A stretch of DNA of 64,000 bases from an uncultured Spirochaetota bacterium (GTDB taxonomy: Bacteria > Spirochaetota > Spirochaetia > SZUA-6 > CAVTHK01): NCBI GenBank assembly GCA_963734495.1, contig CAVTHK010000001.1, positions 288,001-352,000 of the forward strand, given 5' to 3'. The translations under genes were made by a program, and so were the position numbers. The notes beneath the pieces were generated by a model that saw nothing but the letters and a program-made list of their open reading frames with translations, was not told where the DNA came from and made no database searches. The stretch's first letter is position 1; each line of letters starts with the position of its first letter. This document shows, in pieces, positions 44,547 to 57,990 of this stretch.

Positions 44547-46523
44547 CTACCGGAACACGAGCATGCCGTGGCCGTCGAGCAGCGTCACCCGCACCCGCGC
44601 GTAGCCGTCGCGGTACTCGCACGCGAGGTCGACGCCATGCGGCTCCAGGCGGGCGGAGCGCGGCGCCTTTAGGAGCTTGACCGCGATCGGAACTTCGACC
44701 AGCGGCAGGGCATCCTCCACGATGTCGAGCCCCTCGGCCCGGCGCTCGGGGGCGAACGAAAGCAGGTGGACGATCGTCGCGGCGCCCTTGCGCACGACCG
44801 TCGTCTCCAGGCGCGACGGCCCTTCGGCGCGCACCAGCGGCTCGGGCAACAGCAGGTCGATGCAGTTGCCGAGCAGCGTGCGGTAGTTGGGCGCCGCGTG
44901 CAGCCCGTAGGCCTCGAGGATGGGCACGGAGAACGTGATCGCGCGCCCGTTGCGCACCGCGGCCGAGTACGGCGACAGCTTCGCCGGCGGCGTGTACGAG
45001 TGGCCCGAGAACTGCAGCCACCCGCGCTCGAACCACGGCTCGACGACGCGCACGAGCGACTCGGCGCCGGCCGCGGGCTTCATGCGGAAACCCGGCTCGT
45101 ACATCACGTAGTCGTAGTCCGCGAGACCGCGCGAGACCTTCTTTGCCGCCCTGAGGAACGTATGGGTGAAGGGGCTCGCCCCGTCGACCTCGATGCCCAG
45201 CCCGGCGAGGGCCGGCTTGCCCGCGTCGTCGAGCGCCGCGCGGCCGCAGACGATGAGCGCACCGCCTGCGGCCAGGTAGGCGGTCAGGCTCGCCGCGAGC
45301 GCCGCGTCGATGCGCGTGGACTCCGGCACGATCGCCAGCTCGTAGCCCGCGAGCTTCGCGTCGGGGCCGACGACGTCGAACTGCTGCTGCAGTTGCTGCA
45401 GCCCGCGCGTCGCGCCGACACCGGACGGCCCCGGGCGGTCGCCAAGCCCGGGGTCGACGATGAGCGCGATCTGGCTCGCGAGCTCGCCTCCGGCGACGTG
45501 GGGCTCGCACTTCTCGATGTGCGCGTACACGCGGCCGATCAGGTCGTACACCGCCTTCTGCGGCCGTCCGTGCGGATGCAGCAGGTCGCCGACTCCGCCG
45601 GTCATCGCCTGGCTCAGGATCTGGCAGCACTCGTACTTGAGCGCCATCTCCGGCTTGAGCGACGCGTTGTCGCCCCAGCTCTTGAAGAAGCGGCCGGTGT
45701 GGCTGAGGGCGGGCAGGCCGAGCGGGCGCACGAAGCGCGCGACGTAGGGGAAGTAGGCGTAGCCCCAGCCGCCGGTGGGCAGGGCCTCGATCTCGACGTG
45801 GCGCAGGTATTTCTTTTCGACGCGCAGGTTGAGCTTGGGCCTGCTGTTGAACCAGGTGCCCATGTGATCCGCGCCACTGCCCGCGGCCTCGACCATGGCG
45901 GAGAAGCGCTTCATGTAGGCGAGGGCCACCTCGCGGGCGTAGCGGTTGCGGTCGTCCTCGACGCGCGGGTCGTAGCCCTTCGTCACCATGCCCTCGACCG
46001 CCCACTTCGAGATGCTCGGCTGGTCCCAGCACATGTCGAGGAAGATGCCGTCAACAGGCTTGTAGACGGTGAGCACCTCCCCGAGGATCTCCGCGATGTA
46101 GTCCTGGTACGGGCTCGACATGTCGAGCACCTGCCAGCCGGCATCGAAAGGGCCGGCCCGGCGCTTGGAGCGCTTGCCGTCGGCCTCGATCGCCACCCAC
46201 TCGGGGTGCTGATTGGCCGCGTACTCGTTGACCTGGCAGGAGATGTAGATCGGCGCCCGGATGCCCTCGCTGTGCAGCGCCTCCACCTGCGCGCCGGTCA
46301 AGTCGAAGCCGCGCGCGAGGCCCGGATGCCGCGACGGGTGCGCGGTGCGGTAGTAGGTGTGGCCGTGGTGGCAGAGCGCGAAGACGGTGACGGAGTCGAC
46401 GTGCGCCTCCTTGAAGGTCCGCGCGAACTCCTTTGCGTCGAAGTCCTTTGCCACTCCGGGGACGTCGGGCCCCGTGTGGAAGTCGAGATGAATGGTCCTC
46501 GAGGGGAAGGTGAACCTGGCCAT
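44547..46523 (-). CDS. GH151-like alpha-L-fucosidase (catalytic barrel plus beta-galactosidase-trimerisation-like domain)
   Basis: RTIHLDFHT, FALCHHG, DGIFLD, HVEIEALPTGGWGY, TGRFFKSWGD and GDLLHP motifs; AAGGAG RBS before ATG 46523. Confidence 0.75.
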   Translation of the reverse strand: MARFTFPSRTIHLDFHTGPDVPGVAKDFDAKEFARTFKEAHVDSVTVFALCHHGHTYYRTAHPSRHPGLARGFDLTGAQVEALHSEGIRAPIYISCQVNEYAANQHPEWVAIEADGKRSKRRAGPFDAGWQVLDMSSPYQDYIAEILGEVLTVYKPVDGIFLDMCWDQPSISKWAVEGMVTKGYDPRVEDDRNRYAREVALAYMKRFSAMVEAAGSGADHMGTWFNSRPKLNLRVEKKYLRHVEIEALPTGGWGYAYFPYVARFVRPLGLPALSHTGRFFKSWGDNASLKPEMALKYECCQILSQAMTGGVGDLLHPHGRPQKAVYDLIGRVYAHIEKCEPHVAGGELASQIALIVDPGLGDRPGPSGVGATRGLQQLQQQFDVVGPDAKLAGYELAIVPESTRIDAALAASLTAYLAAGGALIVCGRAALDDAGKPALAGLGIEVDGASPFTHTFLRAAKKVSRGLADYDYVMYEPGFRMKPAAGAESLVRVVEPWFERGWLQFSGHSYTPPAKLSPYSAAVRNGRAITFSVPILEAYGLHAAPNYRTLLGNCIDLLLPEPLVRAEGPSRLETTVVRKGAATIVHLLSFAPERRAEGLDIVEDALPLVEVPIAVKLLKAPRSARLEPHGVDLACEYRDGYARVRVTLLDGHGMLVFR

Positions 46524-46560
46524 GGGCGCTCCTTTTTCTGGCTTCGGGGGCGGCGCCCCC

Positions 46561-47583
46561 TTACTCGATCTCGTCGATGACGATCTTGGTGACCTCGCCC
46601 GGGTGGGCCTTCCAGAACGAGAGCGCCTCGCCGGCCCGCGCGAACGGAAAGCGGTGGGTGATGATCGGGGCCACATCGAGCCGGCTCTCGCGCAGCATCG
46701 CGATCACGTCGGCAAAGTCCGGCGGCAGCGCGTTGCGCGAGCCGCGGATGTCGAGCTCCTTCTGGACGAAGTTCTTCGTTTCGTACGGGACCTCCTTGCT
46801 CGCGTAGCCGATGTACACGACGGTCCCGCAGTAGCAGACGATATCGACGGCCGCCCGGTAGGTCTGCGGAAGCCCGACCGCCTCGATCACGACGTCGGCG
46901 CCGTGCCCGCCGGTGAGCGATAGGACGCGCTCGGCGAGCGGCTCGCTGCGGCTGTTGATGCCGGCGGCCGCGCCGAGAGCGCGCGCGAGGGCGATCTTGG
47001 CGTCGTCGATGTCGATGGCGATCACCTCCGCTCCGGCCCGCGCCGCCCCCACGATCGCGCCGAGGCCGATCATCCCGCAGCCGAACACCGCCACCTTGTC
47101 GCCCGGCTTGGCCTGGCCGCGGCGCACCGCGTGAAAGCCGACCGACAGCGGCTCGACCAGGGTCAGCCGGTCCCAGCTCAGGTCGCCCGCCGGAAACACC
47201 TTGGTTTCGGGCGCGCTGACGAACAGCGTCGCGGCCCCGTCGCGCTGCACCCCCATCGTCTGGTTGGACTTGCAGGCATTGGGCCGCCCCTTGCGGCAGG
47301 AGCTGCAGACGCCGCAGCTCGTGTACGGGTAGAGCGTCACGCGCGCGCCCTTCTCGAGCCGCGCCTGGACCCCGGGCCCGACCGACACGACCTCGGCCGC
47401 CGTCTCGTGCCCGACGATCCGGGGAAAGGTCACCAGGGGATTGTCGCCGGCGAACGACTTGAGGTCGCTGCCGCAGAGACCGAGCTGCCGGATGCGCACC
47501 AGCACCTCGCCCCGCCCCGGCGCGGGCTCAGGGATGTCGCGGAAGCCGGTCCTGCCCGGCTCCAGGATGGCGCACGCCTTCAT
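46561..47583 (-). CDS. Zinc-binding alcohol/sugar-acid dehydrogenase (L-galactonate dehydrogenase-like)
   Basis: GLCGSD, GHE, CGVCSSC..NAC, GCGMIG and KELDIRGSRNA motifs. Confidence 0.85.
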   Translation of the reverse strand: MKACAILEPGRTGFRDIPEPAPGRGEVLVRIRQLGLCGSDLKSFAGDNPLVTFPRIVGHETAAEVVSVGPGVQARLEKGARVTLYPYTSCGVCSSCRKGRPNACKSNQTMGVQRDGAATLFVSAPETKVFPAGDLSWDRLTLVEPLSVGFHAVRRGQAKPGDKVAVFGCGMIGLGAIVGAARAGAEVIAIDIDDAKIALARALGAAAGINSRSEPLAERVLSLTGGHGADVVIEAVGLPQTYRAAVDIVCYCGTVVYIGYASKEVPYETKNFVQKELDIRGSRNALPPDFADVIAMLRESRLDVAPIITHRFPFARAGEALSFWKAHPGEVTKIVIDEIE

Positions 47584-47598
47584 TCTTCCCTCCTATGA

Positions 47599-47839
47599 CG
47601 TGACGTCCCTCGTCACGTCCCAAGTCCCGAGTCCTCGAGGGGCCCTCCGTGACGTCCTCGTCACGTCCCAAGTCCCGAGTCCGCGAGGGGCCCTCCGTGA
47701 CGTCCTCGTCACGTCCCAAGTCCCGAGTCCGCGAGGGGCCCTCCGTGACGTCCTCGTCACGTCCCAAGTCCCGAGTCCTCGAGGGGCCCTCCGTGACGTC
47801 CTCGTCACGTCCCAAGTCCCGAGTCCTCGAAGGGCCCTG
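47599..47839. repeat. Intergenic tandem array, 5 x 48 bp, each unit palindromic, no spacers
   Basis: Unit CGTGACGTCCTCGTCACGTCCCAAGTCCCGAGTCC(T/G)CGAGGGGCCCTC starting at 47599 (49 bp), 47648, 47696, 47744 and 47792. Confidence 0.95.
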
Positions 47840-47840
47840 C

Positions 47841-48878
47841 CTAACCAAGATAAGGATAGTCGCGGGCCACGAGACCGGCGTCCTTGAGCGCGGTCCAGAA
47901 CGGCGTGGGGACCTCGGCATCGGCGAGCGCGGCGTTGTCGGCCACGCGCTCGGCCCGGCTCGTGTTCAGCGAGACCGCGGCGACACCGGGGGGCGAGAGC
48001 GCGAACTGCACGCAGACGGCCGGCGCCGACACGCCGTGGCGCGCGCAGAGCGCGAGGAAGCGCTCGCGCCATTCGAACAGCGGCCGCTCGCGCGCGGGAT
48101 CCGGCCTGCGATAGTCGAAGAACTCGCCGCCGGTGAGGAAACCGGCGTGGAACACCGCCGAGTTCACGATCCCGACGCCCCGCTCGCGCAGGCGCTCCAC
48201 GAACGCGAGGAGCTCCGGCGGATGGCGATACACCGTGAGGCTGCACGCCAGCATCACCCAGTCGAGGTCGACGGCGTCGGCGATCTCCCGGATCACGGTC
48301 CAGTCCTTGCTCCCGACGCCGACGGCCCGCGCCTCGCCCCGGGAGCGGACCTCGCCTAACGCGTCGTAGGCGTCCCGCACGTCCGCGAAGCGTCGGCGGC
48401 GCTCGGCGCCGCCGCCCGCCGCCGCGAGGTATTCGTCGGGATCGTGCACCGAGACGAGGTCGGCGCGGAATCCCTCGCCGAGGAGGCTGTTGCCCTGCCG
48501 CCAGCACTCCACGATCCCCTCGCGGCCGATGCGCTGCTCCGCGTCGTGCGCGAGGCCCTTCCAGGCGCCCGGCTCGAACGTCGGCTCGCTGCCGCGCAGC
48601 GGGACGCGCAGCCACCCCAGCTTGTTGCTGATCAGCACATCCGCGGGCCGCGCGCCGAGGTCCCGCAGGGCCCCGCCCAGGGCCTCGAGCGCCAGCCCCG
48701 CCCCGTACTTGCCTGCCGAGTCGAAGACCACCGGCCGGCTCACACGGGCGAGGCACTCGCCGACGATCGCGCGCTTCGCCTCGAACGGGAGGGCCCGGTA
48801 CAGGTTGCCCAGGCTGCTCGTCCCGAAGATGACCGGCGGAACGGTGAGGCCCGTGCGGCCGAAAAGCCTGCGCGTCAT
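47841..48878 (-). CDS. Aldo/keto reductase (L-fucose/L-galactose dehydrogenase-like)
   Basis: FGTSSLGNLY, FDSAGKYGAGLA, ISNKLG and VSVHDPDEY motifs; ATG 48878 overlaps the LacI stop. Confidence 0.85.
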   Translation of the reverse strand: MTRRLFGRTGLTVPPVIFGTSSLGNLYRALPFEAKRAIVGECLARVSRPVVFDSAGKYGAGLALEALGGALRDLGARPADVLISNKLGWLRVPLRGSEPTFEPGAWKGLAHDAEQRIGREGIVECWRQGNSLLGEGFRADLVSVHDPDEYLAAAGGGAERRRRFADVRDAYDALGEVRSRGEARAVGVGSKDWTVIREIADAVDLDWVMLACSLTVYRHPPELLAFVERLRERGVGIVNSAVFHAGFLTGGEFFDYRRPDPARERPLFEWRERFLALCARHGVSAPAVCVQFALSPPGVAAVSLNTSRAERVADNAALADAEVPTPFWTALKDAGLVARDYPYLG

Positions 48879-49876
48879 CGGATCGCCCCCACGGACTCGT
48901 GCACGTGCAGCTCCGCCTGCAGCCGCACCGTTCGGGGGAAACCGCCCCACTCTCCAGCCATGCGGCGCGCGAGAAGCTCCTCCACGGTGCTCGCAATCTC
49001 CCGCAGGGGCTGCGCCACCACGGTGAGCCGCGGCTTGAAGATCATGGCGAGCTCCAGGCTGTCGAAGCCCACCAGCGAGAGATCGCGCGGCACCCGCAAC
49101 CCCCGTTCGTTCAACGCCATGATGCACCCCAGCGTCATCTCGTAGTTGGTCGTGTAGATCGCGGTCGGCTGCGGGCGCGCGTCGAGCAGAGCGAGCGCGG
49201 CGCGGTGGCCTCCGGCCACGGTGTAAGCGCCGTTGCTGACCAGAGCGGCGCGGGGGGTCACGCCCGCGTCGCGAAGGGCGGCGTTGAACCCCGCGAGCCG
49301 GCGGCCCGCCGTGTAGACGCTTCGCGGCCCCACGATGATGCCGAGGCGTCGGTGCCCGCGCTCGAGCAAGTGCGCGGCCACGGCCCGCGAGGCGGCCTCG
49401 TTGTCGATGACCGCGGCGTCGACGGCCGCGGCCGAGAGAAGCCGGTCGAAAAGCACGAGCGGGAACCGCCTCGCGGCGAGGGCGGCGAGCGCGGGCTGGT
49501 TCCGCCGGCACGGCACCGCGACGAGGCCGTCGATGCGCCTGCTGAGCAGGAAGTCGAGCTTGCTTTCAAAGGTTCGCGCGTCGTCGCGGTAGTCGCACAC
49601 GACCGTCGTATATCCCCGGCTCTGCGCGAAGCTCTCCACGTGCGACGCGATCGTCGCGAAGAACACGCCCTCGAGCCGCGGGATGAGCACGCCGATGCTC
49701 ATCGAGCGGTTGATCTTGAGCCCTCGCGCCAGGTCGTTCCGTCGGAAGGCCAGCCGCTTGATGACCCGCTCGAGGCTGGCACGGTTGGCGGGAAGCACGC
49801 TGCCGCCGTTGATGTACTTCGAAACGGTGGCGATCGACAGTCCGGCGAGCGCCGCCACGTCCTTGATGGTGGAAAT
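48875..49876 (-). CDS. LacI family transcriptional regulator (start is ATT 49876 or GTG 49960)
   Basis: STIKDVAALAGLSIATVSKYING HTH, ARGLK hinge and VPRDLSLVGFD. Confidence 0.9.
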   Translation of the reverse strand: MSTIKDVAALAGLSIATVSKYINGGSVLPANRASLERVIKRLAFRRNDLARGLKINRSMSIGVLIPRLEGVFFATIASHVESFAQSRGYTTVVCDYRDDARTFESKLDFLLSRRIDGLVAVPCRRNQPALAALAARRFPLVLFDRLLSAAAVDAAVIDNEAASRAVAAHLLERGHRRLGIIVGPRSVYTAGRRLAGFNAALRDAGVTPRAALVSNGAYTVAGGHRAALALLDARPQPTAIYTTNYEMTLGCIMALNERGLRVPRDLSLVGFDSLELAMIFKPRLTVVAQPLREIASTVEELLARRMAGEWGGFPRTVRLQAELHVHESVGAIR

Positions 49877-49956
49877 GGAAGGGTCCTCCGCGGGGAATCC
49901 GGCGCGGGCGGGGCGGCAGGCCGCGCACAGCCGCCCGCGCCCCGCCCCGCCGGCGC

Positions 49957-51591
49957 TCACAGCGTCAGCAGCGAGTCCAGCTTGACCTGCTCCTCGCCGA
50001 GCTGCACCTCGACCACGGTCGCGATCGTGTCGGGGATCCGCTCAGGCCGGTCGATGACCAGGCGGTGCTGCTTCTGCGACTTGTTCAATACCGTGGCGTA
50101 CTTCACGGTGGCCGAAGGGTCGGCGAGCAGGCGAACGGCCTTTATGCTGTTCGCAAGCCCGTGGATCGTGAGCCTGTGGGGCCAGTCGAACACGTGCAGG
50201 AAGAGGCGTCCCGGTTTGAATGTCACCCCGCCCCAGCTCGACGGGTCGTAGGGAAGCACGGGCGCCGGCCTGGTGCCGTAGATCGCCTCGCCGCTCGCGG
50301 TCACCCAGCGGCCGACGTCGCGAAGAATCCGCACGCTCGGCTCCGGGATGACGCCCTCGGCCGTCGGGCCCACGTTGAGCAGGTAGTTGCCCCCGCGGCC
50401 GTTGATCATGACGAGCAGCCGCGCGACTCGCTCGGCGCTTTTCCAGTTGTGGTCGAAGCTCTTGAATCCCCAGGTGTCGTTGAGCGTCGCCGGGATCTCC
50501 CAGTCGCGGTCCAGAGGCAGGCTCGGGATCAGGTTGTCCCCGGTGTTGATGTAATCGCCGCACTGGTTTCCGATCCGGCCGTTGACGAGGCAGGACGGCT
50601 GGATCTCCTTGACGAACCGGTAGAGCTGCTGGCTGTACTTGAGCTCGACGTTCATCGGCGTGTCGAACCAGATCATGCCGATGTCGCCGTACTGCGTGAG
50701 CAGCTCCCGAACCTGCGGCTTGCACTTGGCCTCGAAGTAGCGGCCGTAATCCTTGGCCTTCTCATCGGGCCAGTCCCACGTGTTGCCGACGGCGTCCTTC
50801 TCGTGCCAGTCCTGGACCTGGGAATAGTAGAAGCAGAGCTTCAGCCCCGCATCGCGGCACGCCTGCGCGAGGTCGACCATCGGGTCGCGCCTAAAGGGCG
50901 TCGCGTCCACGATGTTGTAGGGCGAGCAGCGGGAGCGGTACATCGCGAAGCCGTCATGGTGCTTGGCGGTGATCGTGACGTACTTCATGCCGGCGTCTTT
51001 CGCCAGGCGCACCCACTCGCGGGCGTCGAACCGCACCGGGTTGAACTGGCCGGCGATCTTCTCGTAATCGGCGACCGGGATCTTGCCGTCGTGCATGATC
51101 CACTCGCCGATGTTCGGCGTCTGCCAGCCCTTCCATTCGCCGGCGAGCACAGAGTAGAGACCCCAATGGATGAACAGGCCGTAGCGCGCCTCGCGCCACC
51201 ACCGGATCGCCCGCTCGGCCGCGGGGTCCAGCGCCTTCTTCGCCGGGGCCGCCGGCGCGGGCTTCGCAGCCGGCCGGACAGGCGCCCTTACCGCCTTTGC
51301 CGCGCGCACCGGCCTGGCGGGGCGGCTCGCCTTTCGCTTCGCGGCGGGTCTGGCTGCGCGGCGCGGGCGCCGGGCCGCCGCCTTGCGGGTGGCCGCCTTG
51401 CGGGCCGGCGCCTTGCGGGCCGGCCGGGCCTTCGCGCGCCGGGCCGGCGCGGCCTTCCGCGCGGCTCGCCTCGCGGCCTTCCTCGGGGCTGCCTTTCGCG
51501 CCTTTCGCGCACTCCTCGCCGGCTTCGCGGCTCGCCTCGCCTTCGCGGCCTTCGCGGGCCGCTTCGCTCTCGATGCCTTCTTCTTTGCCAT
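49957..51591 (-). CDS. GH29 alpha-L-fucosidase with an N-terminal Lys/Arg/Ala/Pro-rich extension
   Basis: WWREARYGLFIHWG, TAKHHDGF, IWFD nucleophile, LLNVGP and GEAIYGT motifs; AGGAGG RBS 7 nt before ATG 51591. Confidence 0.92.
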   Translation of the reverse strand: MAKKKASRAKRPAKAAKARRAAKPARSARKARKAAPRKAARRAARKAAPARRAKARPARKAPARKAATRKAAARRPRRAARPAAKRKASRPARPVRAAKAVRAPVRPAAKPAPAAPAKKALDPAAERAIRWWREARYGLFIHWGLYSVLAGEWKGWQTPNIGEWIMHDGKIPVADYEKIAGQFNPVRFDAREWVRLAKDAGMKYVTITAKHHDGFAMYRSRCSPYNIVDATPFRRDPMVDLAQACRDAGLKLCFYYSQVQDWHEKDAVGNTWDWPDEKAKDYGRYFEAKCKPQVRELLTQYGDIGMIWFDTPMNVELKYSQQLYRFVKEIQPSCLVNGRIGNQCGDYINTGDNLIPSLPLDRDWEIPATLNDTWGFKSFDHNWKSAERVARLLVMINGRGGNYLLNVGPTAEGVIPEPSVRILRDVGRWVTASGEAIYGTRPAPVLPYDPSSWGGVTFKPGRLFLHVFDWPHRLTIHGLANSIKAVRLLADPSATVKYATVLNKSQKQHRLVIDRPERIPDTIATVVEVQLGEEQVKLDSLLTL

Positions 51592-51650
51592 TCTGTTACC
51601 TCCTCACGTCTTCCTGCGGCGCGGCGCCGCAAGACGTGTGTCGTTGCGCT

Positions 51651-52699
<1,049 letters not shown>

Positions 52700-52703
<4 letters not shown>

Positions 52704-53809
52704 GCTTCGCCTCCCCCAGCGACGTCGATCGGCGCAGCCGGCGCTCTGTGCACCCGCGCCTTGCGCCCCCCGCCGGCAGGCTCCGCCGCGCGCGGCTCCT
52801 CGTCGGGACCATGGAGGAAGCAGCGCACCCGGTGCCCGCCCGCGCCGCCCCCGCCCTCCCGGCCGACGAGCGCCGGCACCGCCTTGTCGCAGCGGCCTTC
52901 GATCCGATCGGGGCAGCGGCTCCAGAACCCGCACTGCCACGGCGGGTTCAGCGGCATCGGCACGGTGCCTTTGATCGCCTCCAGCCGCACGCGCGCCTTG
53001 CGCCCCAGCTTCGGGATGCTCTTGAGCAGCAGGCTCGTGTACGGGTGCAGCGGGTTCTTGAAGATGTCGTGCGCCGTCCCCTGCTCGACCACGCGGCCGA
53101 GGTACATCACCGCGACCTCGTCGGCGATCTCCGCGATCACCCCCAGGTCGTGGGTGATGTAGAGAACGCTCATGCCCAGCGCCTCCTGCAGCTCCTTGAT
53201 CAGCTCCAGGATCTGCGCCTGCACCGTGACGTCGAGCGCGGTGGTGGGCTCGTCGGCGATCAGCAGCGCCGGGTGGCAGGAGAGCGCCATCGCGATCATT
53301 GCCCGCTGCCGCATGCCGCCGGAGAGCTGGTGCGGGTACTCCTGGAAGCGCTGAGCCGGGTTGCTGATCCCCACGCGCGCCAGCATCTCGATCGCGATCT
53401 CGCGGGCCTGGAACTTGTCCTGCGTCCGGTGGAGCAGGATCGCCTCCATGACCTGGTTGCCGATCGTGTGCACGGGAGACAGCGACGTCATCGGCTCCTG
53501 GAAGATCATCGAGATGTCCTTGCCGCGGATGGCGCGAATCTCCGCCCCGCGGCCGTCAAGGGAGGCGAGGTCGACCGGCACGCCGTTGTCCCGCGAGAAC
53601 ATGATGCGGCCCTGCACGATACGGCCCGGCGCCGGGACGATGCGCAGGACGCTCTGGGCAGTCACGCTCTTGCCGCAGCCGCTTTCCCCGATGATTCCGA
53701 GGGTGCGCTTCTGGCCCACGGACAGGCTGACGCCGTCGACGGCCTTGAGCGTGCCTTCCTCGAGCGCGAACCAGGTGCGCAGCTCTTCGATCTCGACGAC
53801 GTTGTTCAT
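52700..53809 (-). CDS. Oligopeptide-type ABC transporter ATP-binding subunit (OppD-like)
   Basis: [18 protein letters not shown] and ADEPTTALD motifs; start ATG 53809. Confidence 0.93.
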
Positions 53810-53820
53810 GCGCCCTCCGC

Positions 53821-54942
53821 CTATCGGTACGGGTCTGCCGCGTCGCGCAGCCCGTCTCCAATAAAGCTGAACATCAGAACCGCCAGCACGACGAACAGAC
53901 CGGGAATGAGCTGCCAGGGTCTCTGCGCGACCGCGCCGATGTCCTGCGCATCCCTGAGCAACACCCCCCAGCTCACAGCCGGCGGCTGCATGCCCAGACC
54001 GAGAAAGCTCAAGCTTGTCTCGCCGAGGATTGTCGACGGTATGGCGAGCGTAATGTGCACTATGAGGTAGCTCATGAAATTGGGCAGAAGGTGACGCGCA
54101 ATGATCCACGACTGCGACGAGCCGGAGATGCGGGCGGCCAGCACAAAGTCCTCCTGGCGCAGCGAGAGCAGCTTGCCGCGGATGATCCGTGCGAGGCCCG
54201 CCCACCCCACGACCGCGAGCACCAGCGTGATGGCGAAGTAGGTCTGCGTCACCGACCAGTGGCGCGGGATGGCCGCGGCCAGCGCCATCCACAGCGGGAT
54301 CGTCGGCATCGAGAGAAGCACCTCGATCGTCCGCTGGATGACGTCGTCGATCACGCCGCCGAGATACCCGGAGATCCCGCCGAGGGTGCAGCCGAGGACG
54401 AAGCTCAGAAACACGCCGCCGAAGCCTATGAACAGCGAGATCCTCGCCCCGTAGAGCGTGCGCGAGAACAGGTCGCGGCCGAGACGGTCGCTGCCGAACA
54501 GCAGCACCGGCATGTCGCCTTCGGTGCCGAAGAAACGCAGCCTGGTCCGGAACAGCCCCAGGAACTTGTACTCGTCGCCCTGCACCAAGAGCCTGATCGG
54601 ATGCACCCGCTCGGTGTCCTCCGTGAATTGCACGCGGAAGTTCGCCGGGTTGACCTTGCGCGTAAAGCCGTAGATGAACGGCGCCTGCAGCCCCTTGCCC
54701 GCTGTGGTGATGTGGATCCGCGTCGGCGGCGCGTTCTCGTATCCGGTAAATCGGTGGTCTCTTTCGTAAGGGACAAAGAAATCGGCCAGGATCGAGACGA
54801 AGTACATCAACGCCAGCAGGACGATCGAAGCCACGGCGACCTTGTGCTTGCGGAAGCGCCACCATATGAGCTGGCCCTGCGACGCGGTGTACCACTGCTC
54901 GGTAAAGGTCTGTTCTGCGACCTGAGTGCTGCTGTCGCTCAT
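53821..54942 (-). CDS. Oligopeptide-type ABC transporter permease (OppC-like)
   Basis: FGSDRLGRDLFSR, ETSLSFLGLG and GDGLRDAADPY motifs. Confidence 0.93.
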   Translation of the reverse strand: MSDSSTQVAEQTFTEQWYTASQGQLIWWRFRKHKVAVASIVLLALMYFVSILADFFVPYERDHRFTGYENAPPTRIHITTAGKGLQAPFIYGFTRKVNPANFRVQFTEDTERVHPIRLLVQGDEYKFLGLFRTRLRFFGTEGDMPVLLFGSDRLGRDLFSRTLYGARISLFIGFGGVFLSFVLGCTLGGISGYLGGVIDDVIQRTIEVLLSMPTIPLWMALAAAIPRHWSVTQTYFAITLVLAVVGWAGLARIIRGKLLSLRQEDFVLAARISGSSQSWIIARHLLPNFMSYLIVHITLAIPSTILGETSLSFLGLGMQPPAVSWGVLLRDAQDIGAVAQRPWQLIPGLFVVLAVLMFSFIGDGLRDAADPYR

Positions 54943-54954
54943 CGCAAGTCCCTC

Positions 54955-55953
54955 TCACGCGCTCGCGGCGCCGTAGCGGATGCGCGGGTCCAGCCAGGCG
55001 AGAAGCAGGTCGGAGAGGAAGGTCCCGATCACGGTGAGCACGCTCAGGATCAGGACGATGCTCCCCGCCAGGAACATGTCCTGAGCGAGCGTGGCTTTCA
55101 GCAGGATGGGCCCGACGGTCTGCAGGTTCAGCACGATGCCGACGATGACCTGCCCCGAGATCAGGGAGGGCAGCAGCCACCCGATGGTGCTGAAGATCGG
55201 GTTCATGGCTATCCGGATCGGGTACTTCATGAGCAGCCGCCCCTCGGCGACGCCTTTGGCGCGCGCGGTCACGACGTACTGCTTGCGCAGCTCGTCGAGC
55301 AGCGTGGCGCGGAGCACCCTGATAAGGCCCGCCGTGCCCGAAGCGGCGACGATGACGACGGGCAGCCACGCGTTGCTCAGCAGGTTGCCGATCTTGGCGA
55401 GCGACCACGGCGCGTCGGCGAACTGAGGCGAAAACAGGCTCGTGATCGCCATGCCCGTCAGGGCATACACCCCCCACATCATCACGAGCGCGATCAGGAA
55501 CGCCGGCGTCGCAAGCCCTATGAACCCGAGAAACGAAAAGAAATAGTCGACAAAGGAATACTGCCGGGTTGCGGACACGATCGCGATCGGGATGGAGGTC
55601 ATCCAGACGATCACGAGGCTGGCCAGCGACAGCGCCACCGTGATGGGCAGCCGCTCACCGAGGACTTCGTTGACGGGCTTCTGCCACAGGAAGGACCAGC
55701 CGAGGTTCCCACGCAGTACGATGCCACCTATCCAGCGGAAGTACTGCTCGTGAAAGGGCCGGTCCAGGCCGAACTGGATCGTCAGCGACTTGATCTCGCC
55801 CTCGGTGACCTCGACACCCGAAGAGCGCAGCGCGTTGATGTATGTCGTGAGGTAGTCGCCCGGAGGGAGCTGGATCACGACGAACGAGATGACCGAGATC
55901 AGAATGAGCAGCGGCACCATGATGACCAGCCGCCGGAGAATGAAGGCTCCCAT
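54955..55953 (-). CDS. Oligopeptide-type ABC transporter permease (OppB-like)
   Basis: IQLPPGD, YVVTARAKG and LDPRIR motifs. Confidence 0.93.
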   Translation of the reverse strand: MGAFILRRLVIMVPLLILISVISFVVIQLPPGDYLTTYINALRSSGVEVTEGEIKSLTIQFGLDRPFHEQYFRWIGGIVLRGNLGWSFLWQKPVNEVLGERLPITVALSLASLVIVWMTSIPIAIVSATRQYSFVDYFFSFLGFIGLATPAFLIALVMMWGVYALTGMAITSLFSPQFADAPWSLAKIGNLLSNAWLPVVIVAASGTAGLIRVLRATLLDELRKQYVVTARAKGVAEGRLLMKYPIRIAMNPIFSTIGWLLPSLISGQVIVGIVLNLQTVGPILLKATLAQDMFLAGSIVLILSVLTVIGTFLSDLLLAWLDPRIRYGAASA

Positions 55954-56037
55954 CGGATGACCCCTTTGACAGTCGGGAGAACAAGACGCCCGGGGCGCGG
56001 CCTGGCCGGTCGCGGCCCCGGGCGTGCCTGCACGCTC

Positions 56038-57990
56038 CTACTTGTAGTAGTAGATCTCCGCGGCGAACTGCGTGGCCGATGAGCGGCCCTTGGTCGCCAG
56101 GTTGCCCAGGTTGACGGGTACCACCATGGGGGAGACCACGTCACGCGCCACCGGGAACATCGGGATGTACTCCATCATCCACGCGGCGAATTTCTTTTCC
56201 GCGGCGGCCGCCCGCTCGGAGCCGGGCTTCACGGCGCGCAGCTCTTCGTCTATCTTGTAGAGCTCCTTGATCCAGTCAGGCGGCTCGATGCCCTCCTTGC
56301 CGTTGGTGAAGATCCAGTTGTGCCACTTGATGCCCCACATGCAGCGCTGCTCGCCGGTGTAGTCGTACTTGAGGTACGGCCAGTTCACGTCGTCGAGCCA
56401 GTCGATGGTGGCATAGAGCTCGCTCGCGTTCCTCCGCTGCGTCCACAACGCGTTGTCGAGCTTTTTCATCGGGACCCGGAGGCCCAGCTTCTCGATGTCC
56501 GCGCGCATCACCTCGGACATCCGCTGCCAGTCCGCCGCCTCCTCCTTGTACTCGAAGATGAAATCGAAGCGTTTGCCGTTGGGGGCGAGGCGATAGCCAT
56601 CGGCGTCCCTCTTGTTCATGCCCATCTCGTCGAGGAGCGCGTTCGCCTTGGCGACGTTGTATTCCTGCGGGAACCACGGCTCGCGCTTGCCCATGCCGAG
56701 GAACACCGTGTCGAGCAGCCCCTTGGTGTTCATGCCCAGGTTGATGGCCTGGCGGAACTTCTTGTTGAGCACCACCTCGGTCCAGAGCGTGTCGCTGTTG
56801 TTGTAGTTCAGGAACAGAGCGACCGGCGCGTTGTGATAGGTGAAGTTGAGGTTCACCTTGTAGTTGCCCTTGGCCTCGTTGTCCTTGAGCAGGGGGACCT
56901 TGTCGTGGACAATGAGGTCGCGGTTCAGGTTGACCTCGCCGGCGATGACCTTGAGCGGGATGACCTCGGGGTCGGCAACGATGACAGCCTCGTACCGATC
57001 GACGTACGGCAGCTGGTTGCCGGCCATGTCGACCTTGTAGTAATAGGGGTTCCGCTCCATGATCATGCGGTCAGCGGTGAACTTGGCAGGCACCCACGGG
57101 CCGAGCGTCGGGAACCCGGCCGCGTTCGCGTTGGTGACCTCGCTCCACAGGATATCCTTGGCCTGGAACAGCCGGAACCACTCTTTGTCGGTGAGGTTCG
57201 CAGCCTTGAGGTCGGCGGCCATCTGCGCCACCGGCGTGTACTTGGTGTGGAACTTCTTGAGGTAGTGGGCCGGCTTCATGATGTCGGTGTAGCTGCCCCA
57301 CAGGTTGCCGAGCCCGAGGATGTCGAAGAAACGCCCGTAAGGCTGGGCGAATGTCATGCGGAACGTGTACTGGTCCAGGATCTCGAGCTTCATCGGCTCC
57401 GCGCCCGCCTTGCCGCCCGCCCGGTAGTTGGACGGCAGGATCGGCGTGATCTCCTTGTTGAGCATCACGTCGTCCCAGCCGAAGCGGACATCGTCAGTGG
57501 TGACTGGCTCCCCGTCCGACCACCTGAGGCCCTTGCGGATCGTCAGCGTGAAGACGGTGTTGTCGTCGTTGACCGAGAAGCTCTCCGCGATGTTGCCGAA
57601 GATGGGGCCCGTGGTGTGCGCGGGGCTCCCGAGCCAGTTCTCCATGGCCGCATCGCGGAGGTTCCAGTCGAGCGACGAGTTCGTCGTGATCGACTTGAAG
57701 GACGGTCCGCCGTACTTGCCGATCTCGACCTTGAGGTCTTCGCCCTTCACGAGCGTGTTCTGCTCGACGACGAACGGCTTGTCCGGCAGGCGCTTTTCCA
57801 CCGGCGGCAACTTGCCGGCTTTGACCAGCTCTGCCAGCACCGGCGCCTCCTTGTACTTGCCCCCCGGCGCAGCCGCGGCCGAGGGCTGCGTCGTGCCGGC
57901 CGCTCCCTTTCCGGGCTCCGTGGTACCGCCGGCCCACACGCCGGGCAGGAGCACGAGAGCGAGGAAAAGGGATAGGATCAGTTTTCTCAT
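56038..57990 (-). CDS. Family-5 ABC substrate-binding protein (probably oligosaccharide-binding)
   Basis: Signal peptide; GKLPPVEKRLP, IGKYGG, GLRWSDGEPVT and RNPYYYKVD.AGNQLPY motifs. Confidence 0.92.
   Translation of the reverse strand: MRKLILSLFLALVLLPGVWAGGTTEPGKGAAGTTQPSAAAAPGGKYKEAPVLAELVKAGKLPPVEKRLPDKPFVVEQNTLVKGEDLKVEIGKYGGPSFKSITTNSSLDWNLRDAAMENWLGSPAHTTGPIFGNIAESFSVNDDNTVFTLTIRKGLRWSDGEPVTTDDVRFGWDDVMLNKEITPILPSNYRAGGKAGAEPMKLEILDQYTFRMTFAQPYGRFFDILGLGNLWGSYTDIMKPAHYLKKFHTKYTPVAQMAADLKAANLTDKEWFRLFQAKDILWSEVTNANAAGFPTLGPWVPAKFTADRMIMERNPYYYKVDMAGNQLPYVDRYEAVIVADPEVIPLKVIAGEVNLNRDLIVHDKVPLLKDNEAKGNYKVNLNFTYHNAPVALFLNYNNSDTLWTEVVLNKKFRQAINLGMNTKGLLDTVFLGMGKREPWFPQEYNVAKANALLDEMGMNKRDADGYRLAPNGKRFDFIFEYKEEAADWQRMSEVMRADIEKLGLRVPMKKLDNALWTQRRNASELYATIDWLDDVNWPYLKYDYTGEQRCMWGIKWHNWIFTNGKEGIEPPDWIKELYKIDEELRAVKPGSERAAAAEKKFAAWMMEYIPMFPVARDVVSPMVVPVNLGNLATKGRSSATQFAAEIYYYK

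What the first reader, a model, noticed from the sequence alone, without database searches (positions are those of the whole stretch)
51232..51591. Histone-H1-like basic tail fused to a cytoplasmic GH29 fucosidase
Seen: the first ~120 residues (MAKKKASRAKRPAKAAKARRAAKP...PAPAAPAKKA) are almost only A/K/R/P, with no acidic residue and no hydrophobic signal peptide. They are in frame with an intact GH29 domain and start at an ATG with AGGAGG 7 nt upstream; I see no SD-supported start nearer the catalytic domain. Established: such tails occur in DNA-binding proteins (histone H1, HupB, AlgP, Hc2), not usually on glycosidases. Inference: the tail could tether the enzyme to nucleoid/RNA or polyphosphate, drive condensates, or bind polyanionic (sulfated or uronate-rich) oligosaccharides imported by the adjacent ABC system. 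The gene lies directly upstream of the LacI gene.
Basis: partly seen in the sequence, partly recalled or inferred. Interest (0 to 1): 0.7.

Follow-up and report, generated by a model that had tools for sequence, protein, structure and literature searches.

The report
Fucosidase with long histone-like basic tail
An uncultured spirochaete has fused a long, floppy, strongly positively charged tail, of the kind normally found on DNA-binding proteins, to an intact sugar-cleaving enzyme and to several other sugar-metabolism enzymes, which suggests that the tails hold these enzymes on a negatively charged structure inside the cell.

Summary
The minus-strand ORF 49957..51591 encodes 544 aa. Residues 1-121 are 93% A/K/R/P with no acidic residue, net charge +49 and no hydrophobic stretch. 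They are in frame with an intact GH29 alpha-L-fucosidase and start at an ATG 7 nt after GAGGAGG.

The fusion is not an assembly artefact. Six orthologues from independent assemblies keep an in-frame tail of 86-121 aa (net +31 to +49). These form one clade with 100/100 support. The nearest tail-less relatives (about 63-69% identity) start about 10 residues before the catalytic domain. AlphaFold2 predicts the tail as disordered.

The tail is not peculiar to this gene. The same genome and its sister genome carry similar tails at either terminus on GH127, GH4, GH116, a transketolase-like enzyme and a glycerophosphodiesterase. In the window's genome alone, an aldehyde dehydrogenase and CarD carry one too. 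Orthologues in neighbouring families lack the tails. All 6 GH127 orthologues examined keep a C-terminal tail that could be lost without harming the enzyme, which argues for selection.

The most likely role is a sequence-independent electrostatic tether to cellular polyanions (nucleoid, ribosomes/RNA, polyphosphate). This is inferred, not tested. Binding of the fucosidase's own substrate is unlikely. This scan earlier noted a comparable tail on another enzyme in a different genome.

The parts
51599..51605 (-). Shine-Dalgarno-like GAGGAGG, 7 nt before the ATG
   Evidence: Read directly from the sequence. The sister-genome orthologue has GGGAGG 8 nt before its ATG.
51226..51591 (-). Codons 1-122: disordered polycationic A/K/R/P tail (net about +48)
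   Evidence: Composition and codon usage. The tail is kept in frame in 6 orthologues. AlphaFold2 gives pLDDT below 50 and no secondary structure for residues 1-116. Short degenerate tandem repeats of 9-27 nt.
51307..51309 (-). GTG codon 95, the only other canonical in-frame start before the domain; possible source of a short isoform
   Evidence: No SD-like motif in the 20 nt upstream. Two database gene calls (P0003, P0123) begin inside the tail near its end; by eye they align at or near the position matching this codon. No DNA was available to see their start codons.
50287..51219 (-). GH29 catalytic domain (residues 125-435)
   Evidence: PF01120, E 9.1e-83. Closest solved structure 9rzy_A, E 1.8e-102. 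D310, R339, D352/N353 and E365 align with AlfC D200, R229, D242/N243 and E274 (PMC7718225 passages) and are invariant in 17 aligned sequences.
49957..50286 (-). C-terminal beta-sandwich domain of the fucosidase (residues 436-544) plus stop codon
   Evidence: The AlphaFold2 model has beta strands from 454 to 531 with pLDDT about 87-93. The region aligns with the C-terminal part of 9rzy_A.
48875..49960 (-). LacI-family regulator ORF, starting at the fucosidase stop codon (the true start may lie further in)
   Evidence: Pfam LacI HTH plus Peripla_BP_1/3. The HTH begins at residue 31 of the longest ORF.
51651..57990 (-). Upstream Opp/Dpp-type ABC importer: SBP_bac_5 (56038-57990), two permeases (54955-55953, 53821-54942), two ATPases (about 52700-53830, 51651-52700)
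   Evidence: Pfam. Same strand, with 59 nt between the last ATPase and the fucosidase ATG.
44547..48560 (-). Downstream same-strand genes: aldo/keto reductase, Zn-dependent dehydrogenase, GHL6-family hydrolase
   Evidence: Pfam. Context only; none carries a basic tail in the census.

Best explanation
The gene encodes one polypeptide: a cytoplasmic, catalytically intact GH29 alpha-L-fucosidase preceded by a disordered polycation of about 121 residues (net about +48). The tail was gained once at the base of a small clade of uncultured, high-G+C spirochaetes. It has since been kept for charge and composition rather than for sequence.

In the same lineage, similar tails were added to either end of several other cytoplasmic catabolic enzymes (GH127, GH4, GH116, a transketolase-like enzyme, a glycerophosphodiesterase, an aldehyde dehydrogenase) and to CarD. 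I infer that the tail is a sequence-independent electrostatic tether. It would hold the enzyme on abundant cellular polyanions (nucleoid DNA, ribosomes/RNA or polyphosphate granules) and so limit its diffusion and bring the tailed enzymes together, while the globular domain hydrolyses fucosides imported by the adjacent ABC system.

Shown: the fusion, its conservation, the predicted disorder, the intact active site, and the recurrence on other enzymes. Inferred: polyanion binding and its physiological purpose. The confidence given is for the whole statement including the inferred tether; the fusion and its conservation alone I hold at about 0.95.
For: Real fusion:
- One ORF with an SD-supported ATG; the public annotation of the same contig also aa (P0122).
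- Six orthologues from different assemblies share an MA(K/R)xK N-terminus in frame with the domain, despite tail lengths of 86, 89, 98, 113, 118 and 121 aa. All length changes are therefore multiples of three.

Single gain:
- The six tailed sequences plus P0003 form a clade with 100/100 support.
- The next relatives (P0013/P0014, P0010/P0011) are 421-424 aa with neither tail nor signal peptide.

Constraint on composition:
- Each tail has 0-1 acidic residues and net +31 to +49. Sequence conservation is confined to short blocks near both ends.

Disorder and intact enzyme:
- Residues 1-116 have pLDDT below 50.
- The AlfC nucleophile, arginine and acid/base positions are conserved.

Lineage habit:
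- A K-rich basic-window census of the genome gives 20 segments. Eight have a recognisable domain: GH29, GH127, GH4, GH116, GDPD, Aldedh, CarD and transketolase-like.
- The sister genome G001 keeps the tail on all 6 proteins checked.
- For the two proteins whose C-termini I read in other families of the order (GH116 and the transketolase-like enzyme, in G011 and G007), the orthologues end without a tail.

Selection on a dispensable C-terminal tail:
- 6 of 6 GH127 sequences at 70% identity or more carry basic C-terminal tails. Four were measured at 57-83 aa after the VWLP motif; two (P0126, P0129) are about 53-60 aa as read by eye.
- 8 of 8 examined at 64% identity or less end about 2-6 residues after the same motif, as read by eye.

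Enrichment:
- 4 of 8 tailed proteins are glycoside hydrolases, against 4 of 90 Pfam-identified ORF segments from 20 random 20-kb regions. Fisher one-sided p = 0.0012; the category was chosen post hoc.

Precedents for what such tails do:
- The AlgP KPAA-repeat tail associates with polyphosphate granules and DNA (PMC9239181, abstract).
- FrzCD binds the nucleoid through a positively charged N-terminal tail, independently of DNA sequence (PMC5716589, start of abstract in the listing).
- GFP with net charge +25 diffuses up to 100-fold slower in E. coli and binds ribosomes (PMC5726854, abstract).
- A PPK1 gene is present in the genome.
Against: - No binding, localisation or expression data exist; the organism is uncultured.
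- For an N-terminal tail, the reading frame is protected simply because the only supported start codon lies at its beginning. Frame conservation alone therefore does not show that the tail itself is useful.
- Repeat slippage could keep the composition uniform without selection.
- The census detects only K-rich windows, so it misses R-rich tails such as G001's GH29 tail. It was run on an indel-prone assembly and the functional category was chosen after seeing the data.
- The four glycoside-hydrolase hits in the random sample all come from one region.
- Strong binding of a +48 protein to ribosomes could be harmful rather than useful; PMC5726854 reports aggregation with purified ribosomes (section heading).
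- Nothing distinguishes DNA, RNA, polyphosphate or acidic membrane as the partner.
Confidence: 0.5

Rival explanations
1. Tolerated low-complexity expansion. GC-rich repeats containing AAG expanded by slippage at gene ends in this lineage. They persist because they do little harm on accessory catabolic enzymes that are expressed only on induction. The tail has no function of its own.
For: The tail DNA contains short degenerate tandem repeats (9-27 nt). G001's GDPD tail is an obvious tandem array of a roughly 14-residue unit. Tail sequence and length change quickly. The tailed proteins are mostly non-essential catabolic enzymes. For N-terminal tails the frame is protected by the enzyme's own need for the start codon.
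Against: C-terminal tails could be removed by any nonsense or frameshift mutation at no cost to the enzyme. Yet they are kept in 6 of 6 GH127 orthologues and in both genomes for GH4, GH116 and the transketolase-like enzyme. Tails stay almost free of acidic residues (0-1 in 86-121 residues) across orthologues whose domains differ by up to 25%. Lysine codons run against the genome's G+C bias. Four GH127 tails share a conserved terminal motif.
Confidence: 0.2
2. Membrane tether. The polycation binds acidic phospholipids on the inner face of the cytoplasmic membrane and parks the enzymes next to the ABC importers that deliver their oligosaccharide substrates.
For: The fucosidase gene directly follows a five-gene ABC importer. 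One tailed enzyme, the glycerophosphodiesterase, acts on lipid head-group derivatives. That polybasic stretches bind acidic membranes is general knowledge, recalled and not looked up here.
Against: The tail has no hydrophobic or amphipathic element: 5 hydrophobic residues in 121 and no predicted helix. CarD, an RNA-polymerase partner, carries the same kind of tail. So do a transketolase-like enzyme and an aldehyde dehydrogenase, which have no obvious reason to sit at the membrane.
Confidence: 0.12
3. Substrate or product binding. The tail captures polyanionic, sulfated or uronate-rich fuco-oligosaccharides for the catalytic domain.
For: GH29 enzymes act on fucosylated glycans, some of which are sulfated (general knowledge, recalled). 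The gene sits in an uptake locus.
Against: The same tails sit on enzymes with unrelated, mostly neutral or small substrates, at either terminus. No sulfatase or uronate-pathway gene was seen among the 14 neighbouring ORFs scanned. Tail-less relatives with 63-69% identical domains are the rule.
Confidence: 0.04
4. Effect on the protein itself. The tail acts as a solubility or folding aid (an entropic bristle), a stability or turnover signal, or an autoinhibitory segment. Alternatively, two isoforms (from ATG1 and GTG95) are made with different fates.
For: The tail is predicted to be fully disordered. An in-frame GTG lies at codon 95, and two database gene calls start inside the tail at or near that position.
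Against: GTG95 has no SD-like motif. Both truncated calls come from ENA assemblies, and one of them (P0123) visibly has a frameshifted C-terminus. Tail-less homologues evidently fold without help. There is no direct evidence either way.
Confidence: 0.1

Closest known systems
AlgP (AlgR3) of Pseudomonas aeruginosa, C-terminal KPAA-repeat domain
   Same: A long (154 aa), lysine/alanine/proline-rich, histone-H1-like low-complexity region. It binds DNA, associates with polyphosphate granules and is needed for their spacing (PMC9239181, abstract).
   Different: AlgP is a dedicated nucleoid/granule protein with no catalytic domain. Here the tail is N-terminal, richer in arginine, and fused to a glycosidase.
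FrzCD chemoreceptor of Myxococcus xanthus
   Same: A protein whose job has nothing to do with DNA uses a positively charged N-terminal tail to sit on the nucleoid in a sequence-independent way, using it as a scaffold (PMC5716589, start of abstract in the listing).
   Different: FrzCD is a signalling protein with what I recall as a much shorter tail (not checked here). It is not an enzyme of sugar catabolism, and not one of a set of tailed enzymes.
PAKKA / lysine-repeat tails of actinobacterial Ku, HupB and topoisomerase I; histone H1 C-terminal domain
   Same: Same composition class and the same presumed non-specific electrostatic binding of nucleic acid (PMC3553676, abstract start in the listing; PMC6821194, passages).
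   Different: All of these proteins act on DNA, so the tail serves their own substrate. A fucosidase has no known business with DNA.
PhaF / PhaM phasins
   Same: H1-like basic tails that link a non-DNA structure (storage granules) to the nucleoid. This is recalled; the papers appeared only as titles in the listing.
   Different: They are structural or regulatory granule proteins, not soluble hydrolases.
GH29 alpha-L-fucosidases with solved structures (9rzy, 9rzx, 7db5; AlfC 6o18)
   Same: The catalytic domain aligns over residues 128-533 at E 1.8e-102. The AlfC nucleophile D200, R229, D242/N243 and E274 have identical counterparts.
   Different: No solved chain matched the tail; all matches begin at residue 115 or later of the query.
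   Same: An ordinary catabolic enzyme that gained a long, disordered basic tail in a narrow clade. This is an AI note that I did not check.
   Different: Different phylum and enzyme, and reported as a single case. Here at least seven enzymes of one lineage carry tails.

Membership tests
Glycoside hydrolase family 29 (alpha-L-fucosidase) | Sequence match to the family profile above the curated threshold | tested here: met
   PF01120, 279 bits against a cut-off of 25.2, residues 125-435. 54 PDB sequences match at E 1e-10 or better, nearly all deposited as alpha-L-fucosidase/GH29 or closely related names such as exo-alpha-L-galactosidase.
Glycoside hydrolase family 29 (alpha-L-fucosidase) | Catalytic nucleophile Asp and the acid/base-loop residues | tested here: met
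   D310 aligns with AlfC D200, the nucleophile. R339 aligns with R229, D352-N353 with D242-N243 (the proposed acid/base loop), and E365 with E274 (alignment; residue roles from PMC7718225 passages). I counted positions by hand, allowing for one residue that seems not to be printed at the start of one alignment block. The counting is confirmed by R229, F237 and N243 falling where the paper names them. All are invariant in 17 sequences.
Glycoside hydrolase family 29 (alpha-L-fucosidase) | Fucosidase activity and linkage specificity | not testable with these tools
   No assay is possible; specificity cannot be read from the sequence here.
Histone-H1-like / AlgP-like polycationic tails (a composition class, not a homologous family) | Long low-complexity region dominated by K/R, A and P, nearly free of acidic and hydrophobic residues | tested here: met
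   93% A/K/R/P, 0 D/E in residues 1-121, net +49.
Histone-H1-like / AlgP-like polycationic tails (a composition class, not a homologous family) | Intrinsic disorder | tested here: met
   AlphaFold2 with a 17-sequence alignment: pLDDT below 50 and no secondary structure for residues 1-116. This is a prediction only.
Histone-H1-like / AlgP-like polycationic tails (a composition class, not a homologous family) | Sequence homology to H1, AlgP, Hc1/Hc2 or another named tail family | tested here: not met
   No Pfam family other than GH29/GHL6 at E 0.01 or better. A database search with residues 1-122 returned only 2 orthologues. The Atlas feature search gave no usable hit. The resemblance is compositional.
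Histone-H1-like / AlgP-like polycationic tails (a composition class, not a homologous family) | Binding of DNA, RNA or polyphosphate | not testable with these tools
   Needs EMSA or pull-down and localisation experiments.
Secreted or periplasmic GH29 (Sec/Tat signal) | N-terminal signal peptide with a hydrophobic core | tested here: not met
   Only M1, V95, V101, V105 and L121 are hydrophobic in the first 121 residues. By contrast, P0053 and P0064 have typical hydrophobic leaders.
Bacterial-microcompartment cargo (encapsulation peptide) | Shell genes in the genome and a short amphipathic helix on the cargo | tested here: not met
   No PF00936 match in the genome, which is 83% complete, so absence is not proven. 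No helix is predicted in the tail.

The most novel reading that the evidence does not exclude
The tails are address tags. In this spirochaete lineage, a set of cytoplasmic sugar-catabolic enzymes (fucosidase, arabinofuranosidase, GH4 and GH116 glycosidases, transketolase-like enzyme, phosphodiesterase, aldehyde dehydrogenase) would be gathered by their polycationic tails onto a shared polyanionic scaffold: nucleoid, RNA or a polyphosphate granule. The result would be a membrane-less catabolic compartment or metabolon, functionally replacing the protein-shelled microcompartments that other bacteria use for fucose and rhamnose breakdown.
Probability: 0.12. Interest if true: 0.85.

Novelty: new variant of a known kind. 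Interest (0 to 1): 0.6.

Why it matters
Polycationic H1-like tails are known as devices that hold DNA-handling proteins, and a few scaffolding proteins, on the nucleoid or on polyphosphate granules. Here one lineage has attached them repeatedly to ordinary soluble catabolic enzymes and has kept them.

If the tails do tether or co-localise these enzymes, this would be a natural example of charge-based organisation of metabolism in a bacterial cytoplasm. It would also be a natural counterpart to the experiments with supercharged GFP, and could provide a simple portable tag for engineering.

If the tails prove inert, the case shows how far low-complexity expansions can go on functional enzymes. 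It also matters for annotation: several database gene calls for these orthologues start inside the tail or inside the domain (P0003, P0006, P0121, P0123).

Tried and rejected
- **Reads at the junction.** The best public run held only 0.26 of the sampled words. When four runs were laid, no contig spanned the tail or the tail-domain junction. One 263-nt contig identical to the window (50918-51180) stops inside the domain, and the rest are conserved GH29 pieces from other organisms. This says nothing for or against the junction, transcription or habitat. The junction rests on the orthologues instead.
- **Database search with the tail alone** (residues 1-122): only P0001 and P0002 came back.
- **Atlas feature search on the tail:** no usable hit.
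- **Metagenome-contig scan.** 80 loci were kept. I inspected the 9 whose tblastn match reached furthest upstream. All such extensions were read-through of stop codons, signal peptides or tandem GH29 copies, not tails. Likewise, of 16 genome-contig loci inspected, only L007 has a tail.
- **Census of basic C-terminal ends without requiring lysine.** Of 7 hits, 6 looked like frameshifted, arginine-rich out-of-frame ends, and the known GH127, GH116 and transketolase-like tails were missed. I dropped this census.
- **Twelve of the 20 K-rich segments** have no Pfam hit. Six have low third-position G+C (0.45-0.71) and are probably non-coding frames. Three (L093, L096, L099) are uncertain and three (L090, L091, L098) were not assessed. 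None is counted.
- **Microcompartment cargo idea:** no BMC shell gene was found.
- **Acidic partner idea.** Only one strongly acidic ORF exists in the genome, and it was not followed up.
- **Literature.** Searches with the term sets found no paper in the held library that describes a glycoside hydrolase with a lysine-rich basic tail. Subscription journals are largely outside that library.
Full report
**What is there.** The finding lies on the minus strand. ORF 49957..51591 encodes 544 residues from an ATG. The sequence just upstream reads GAGGAGG, then seven bases, then ATG. Residues 1-121 contain 48 Ala, 28 Arg, 21 Lys and 15 Pro (93%). They contain no Asp or Glu and only five scattered hydrophobic residues, and carry a net charge of +49. 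The first acidic residue is D122. Pfam places a GH29 alpha-L-fucosidase domain at residues 125-435 (279 bits, cut-off 25.2). The only other canonical in-frame start before the domain is GTG at codon 95, which has no Shine-Dalgarno-like motif. All 21 lysines are AAG codons in DNA of about 80% G+C. Third-position G+C is 0.87, close to the 0.93 of the domain. The composition therefore runs against the base composition and looks like coding sequence.

**Is the fusion real?** This assembly is prone to indels. In the same genome a GH4 gene and a GH116 gene are each split between reading frames, and earlier notes of this scan say the same of other loci. The junction therefore needed independent support. 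Public reads could not give it: no contig from four runs spans the tail. Orthologues do give it.
- Four database proteins (P0001, P0002, P0004, P0005; 74-90% identical) and the sister-genome locus (L007 = L101, handle G001) all begin MA(K/R)xK.
- Their basic tails are 118, 89, 98, 86 and 113 residues long and run in frame into the domain. Each has 0-1 acidic residues and net charge +31 to +43.
- G001 has its own GGGAGG 8 nt before the ATG.
- The public annotation of the window's own contig also calls the 544-aa protein (P0122).
- Shorter database calls start inside the tail (P0003, P0123) or inside the domain (P0006, P0121). P0006 comes from the G001 locus, whose full ORF is open. P0123 has a frameshifted C-terminus. 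I could not see the DNA behind P0003, P0121 or P0123.

**Origin.** In a maximum-likelihood tree of the domain alone, the six tailed sequences plus P0003 form one clade with 100/100 support. The nearest outgroups (P0013/P0014, then P0010/P0011; 63-69% identity) are proteins of 421-424 aa. They start about ten residues before the conserved WWR motif and have no signal peptide. More distant GH29s with longer N-termini carry ordinary hydrophobic leaders (P0053, P0064). Of 172 GH29-bearing loci collected from genomes, relatives and metagenomes, only the window's own locus has a K-rich basic window in the GH29 frame. G001's tail is arginine-rich and escapes that filter. The tail was therefore gained once, in a narrow clade whose closest named contigs are MAGs labelled "uncultured Spirochaetales".

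**The enzyme part is ordinary and intact.**
- The closest solved structures are GH29 fucosidases (9rzy_A, E 1.8e-102; 9rzx; 7db5; AlfC 6o18).
- Aligned to AlfC, D310 matches the nucleophile D200, R339 matches R229, D352-N353 match the proposed acid/base loop D242-N243, and E365 matches E274 (residue roles from passages of PMC7718225).
- All of these residues are invariant in my 17-sequence alignment.
- AlphaFold2 folds residues 121-544 (catalytic barrel plus C-terminal beta-sandwich). It leaves residues 1-116 without structure at pLDDT below 50.
- The gene follows an Opp/Dpp-type ABC importer (binding protein, two permeases, two ATPases). It is followed by a LacI-family regulator, an aldo/keto reductase, a Zn-dependent dehydrogenase and a GHL6-family hydrolase, all on the same strand. 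With no signal peptide, this is a cytoplasmic enzyme acting on imported fucosides.

**The tail is a habit of the lineage.** I scanned all six frames of the 5.38-Mb genome (67.8% G+C) for lysine-containing basic windows. Out-of-frame translation of GC-rich DNA cannot easily produce these.
- The strict filter gave 7 segments and a relaxed one gave 20.
- Eight have a recognisable domain:

| Protein | Terminus | Tail length | Calls |
|---|---|---|---|
| GH29 | N | about 121 aa | 12 |
| GH127 | C | about 70-83 aa | 12 |
| GH4 | C | about 45 aa | 12 |
| GH116 | C | about 47 aa | 12 |
| Glycerophosphodiesterase | N | about 95 aa | 12 |
| Aldehyde dehydrogenase | N | about 40 aa | 18, 33 |
| CarD | N | about 110 aa | 18, 33 |
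| Transketolase-like enzyme | C | about 70 aa | 43 (identified through its G001 orthologue) |

- The other 12 segments have no Pfam hit. At least six of them are probably non-coding frames.
- G001 keeps a tail on all six proteins that I checked. On GDPD it is an obvious tandem array. A tail-less GH4 paralogue sits next to the tailed copy.
- Orthologues of GH116 and the transketolase-like enzyme in two other families of the same order end without tails.
- For GH127, six of six sequences at 70% identity or more carry basic C-terminal tails. Four were measured at 57-83 residues and two are about 53-60 by eye. Four share the ending GSKRPxxKIxRxTARRKG. Eight of eight examined at 64% or less stop about two to six residues after the same VW(I/L/M)P motif.
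- That last result matters most. A C-terminal tail can be lost by any nonsense or frameshift mutation without harming the enzyme, so its retention points to selection on the tail itself.

**Is there a functional theme?** Four of the eight tailed proteins are glycoside hydrolases, and the transketolase-like enzyme and the phosphodiesterase are also catabolic. As a background I took 20 random 20-kb regions and chose 108 ORF segments with coding-like codon-position G+C. Ninety had a Pfam hit at E 1e-8 or better. Four of these were glycoside-hydrolase pieces, all GH2 and all from one region. Four of 8 against 4 of 90 gives a one-sided Fisher p of 0.0012. This is suggestive only. The category was chosen after seeing the data, the census misses arginine-rich tails, and the numbers are small.

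**How it most likely works.** The tail has no homology to any named family. Pfam, a tail-only database search and the Atlas all gave nothing beyond orthologues. It belongs to a composition class. Work on that class points one way:
- AlgP's KPAA tail binds DNA and associates with polyphosphate granules (PMC9239181, abstract).
- FrzCD uses a positively charged N-terminal tail to sit on the nucleoid independently of DNA sequence (PMC5716589, abstract start in the listing).
- GFP with a net charge of only +25 diffuses up to 100-fold slower in E. coli because it binds ribosomes (PMC5726854, abstract).

A disordered +48 tail in a cytoplasm will bind polyanions. The open questions are which polyanion, and whether the cell uses this. 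I therefore read the tail as a non-specific electrostatic tether to nucleoid, ribosomes/RNA or polyphosphate. A PPK1 gene is present. The likely consequence is that the tailed catabolic enzymes have low mobility and are co-localised. CarD, a partner of RNA polymerase, carries the same kind of tail in this genome, which fits nucleic-acid affinity.

**Rivals.**
- A tolerated repeat expansion without function is the main rival. The DNA is repetitive, tails change quickly, and the frame of an N-terminal tail is protected by the start codon alone. Against it stand the kept C-terminal tails, the near-absence of acidic residues over the observed divergence, and the conserved GH127 terminal motif.
- Membrane tethering next to the importers is possible but has no specific support; the tail has no hydrophobic or amphipathic element.
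- A role in solubility or turnover, or in producing two isoforms from ATG1 and GTG95, cannot be excluded.
- A microcompartment-cargo role is unlikely. No shell gene was found in this 83%-complete genome and no amphipathic helix is predicted.

**Novelty and verdict.** Basic H1-like tails are well known on DNA-handling proteins and on a few scaffold proteins. My searches of the held library found no report of one on a glycoside hydrolase. What is new here is the target, the size (the longest such tail in this genome) and above all the recurrence on at least seven enzymes of one lineage with evidence of retention. I class it as a new variant of a known kind. It is real and conserved, and its function is untested.

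Noticed in passing
L001:1-2214 (G000:C1:241013-243226, + strand), with P0125-P0129: A GH127 beta-L-arabinofuranosidase carries a C-terminal basic tail. Four of the six orthologues share a conserved extreme C-terminus, GSKRPxxKIxRxTARRKG, which could be a specific binding motif rather than bulk charge.
   Followed up: partly
L117:1501-2562 (G001:C34:10774-11835): The sister genome's glycerophosphodiesterase has an N-terminal tail of about 130 aa built from near-perfect tandem copies of a roughly 14-residue unit (AAAKKAARKRPARK). This shows recent repeat expansion as the way the tails grow.
   Followed up: no
L088:1-825 (G000:C1:642105-642929, - strand): CarD (CarD_TRCF_RID plus CarD_C domains) carries an N-terminal K/A/P/S-rich tail of about 110 aa in this genome. 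It is the one tailed protein with an obvious link to nucleic acids.
   Followed up: no
G000:C2:5500-6130 and G000:C13:519400-522100 (L002, L004): The GH4 and GH116 genes are split between reading frames (one and at least two shifts). They are intact in the sister genome, so these are most likely indel errors of the assembly rather than pseudogenes.
   Followed up: partly
G000:C15:99056-99490 (+ strand; overlaps L098): This is the only strongly acidic low-complexity ORF in the genome: 145 aa, about 130 of them a D/E-rich run. Another frame of the same DNA gives a K/R/T-rich string. It could be a polyanionic counterpart to the basic tails, or nothing.
   Followed up: no
window 44547-48560 (- strand): Downstream of the LacI gene lie an aldo/keto reductase, a Zn-dependent dehydrogenase and a GHL6-family hydrolase with a weak GH29-like match. 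Together with the fucosidase and the importer they may form a fucoside-utilisation locus with a non-phosphorylating route.
   Followed up: no
L202 and L204 (G001:C63:14713-17390): Two GH4 paralogues sit side by side in the sister genome. One has the basic C-terminal tail and the other ends just after the shared WLADPRN motif. This natural tailed/untailed pair would be useful for comparison.
   Followed up: no
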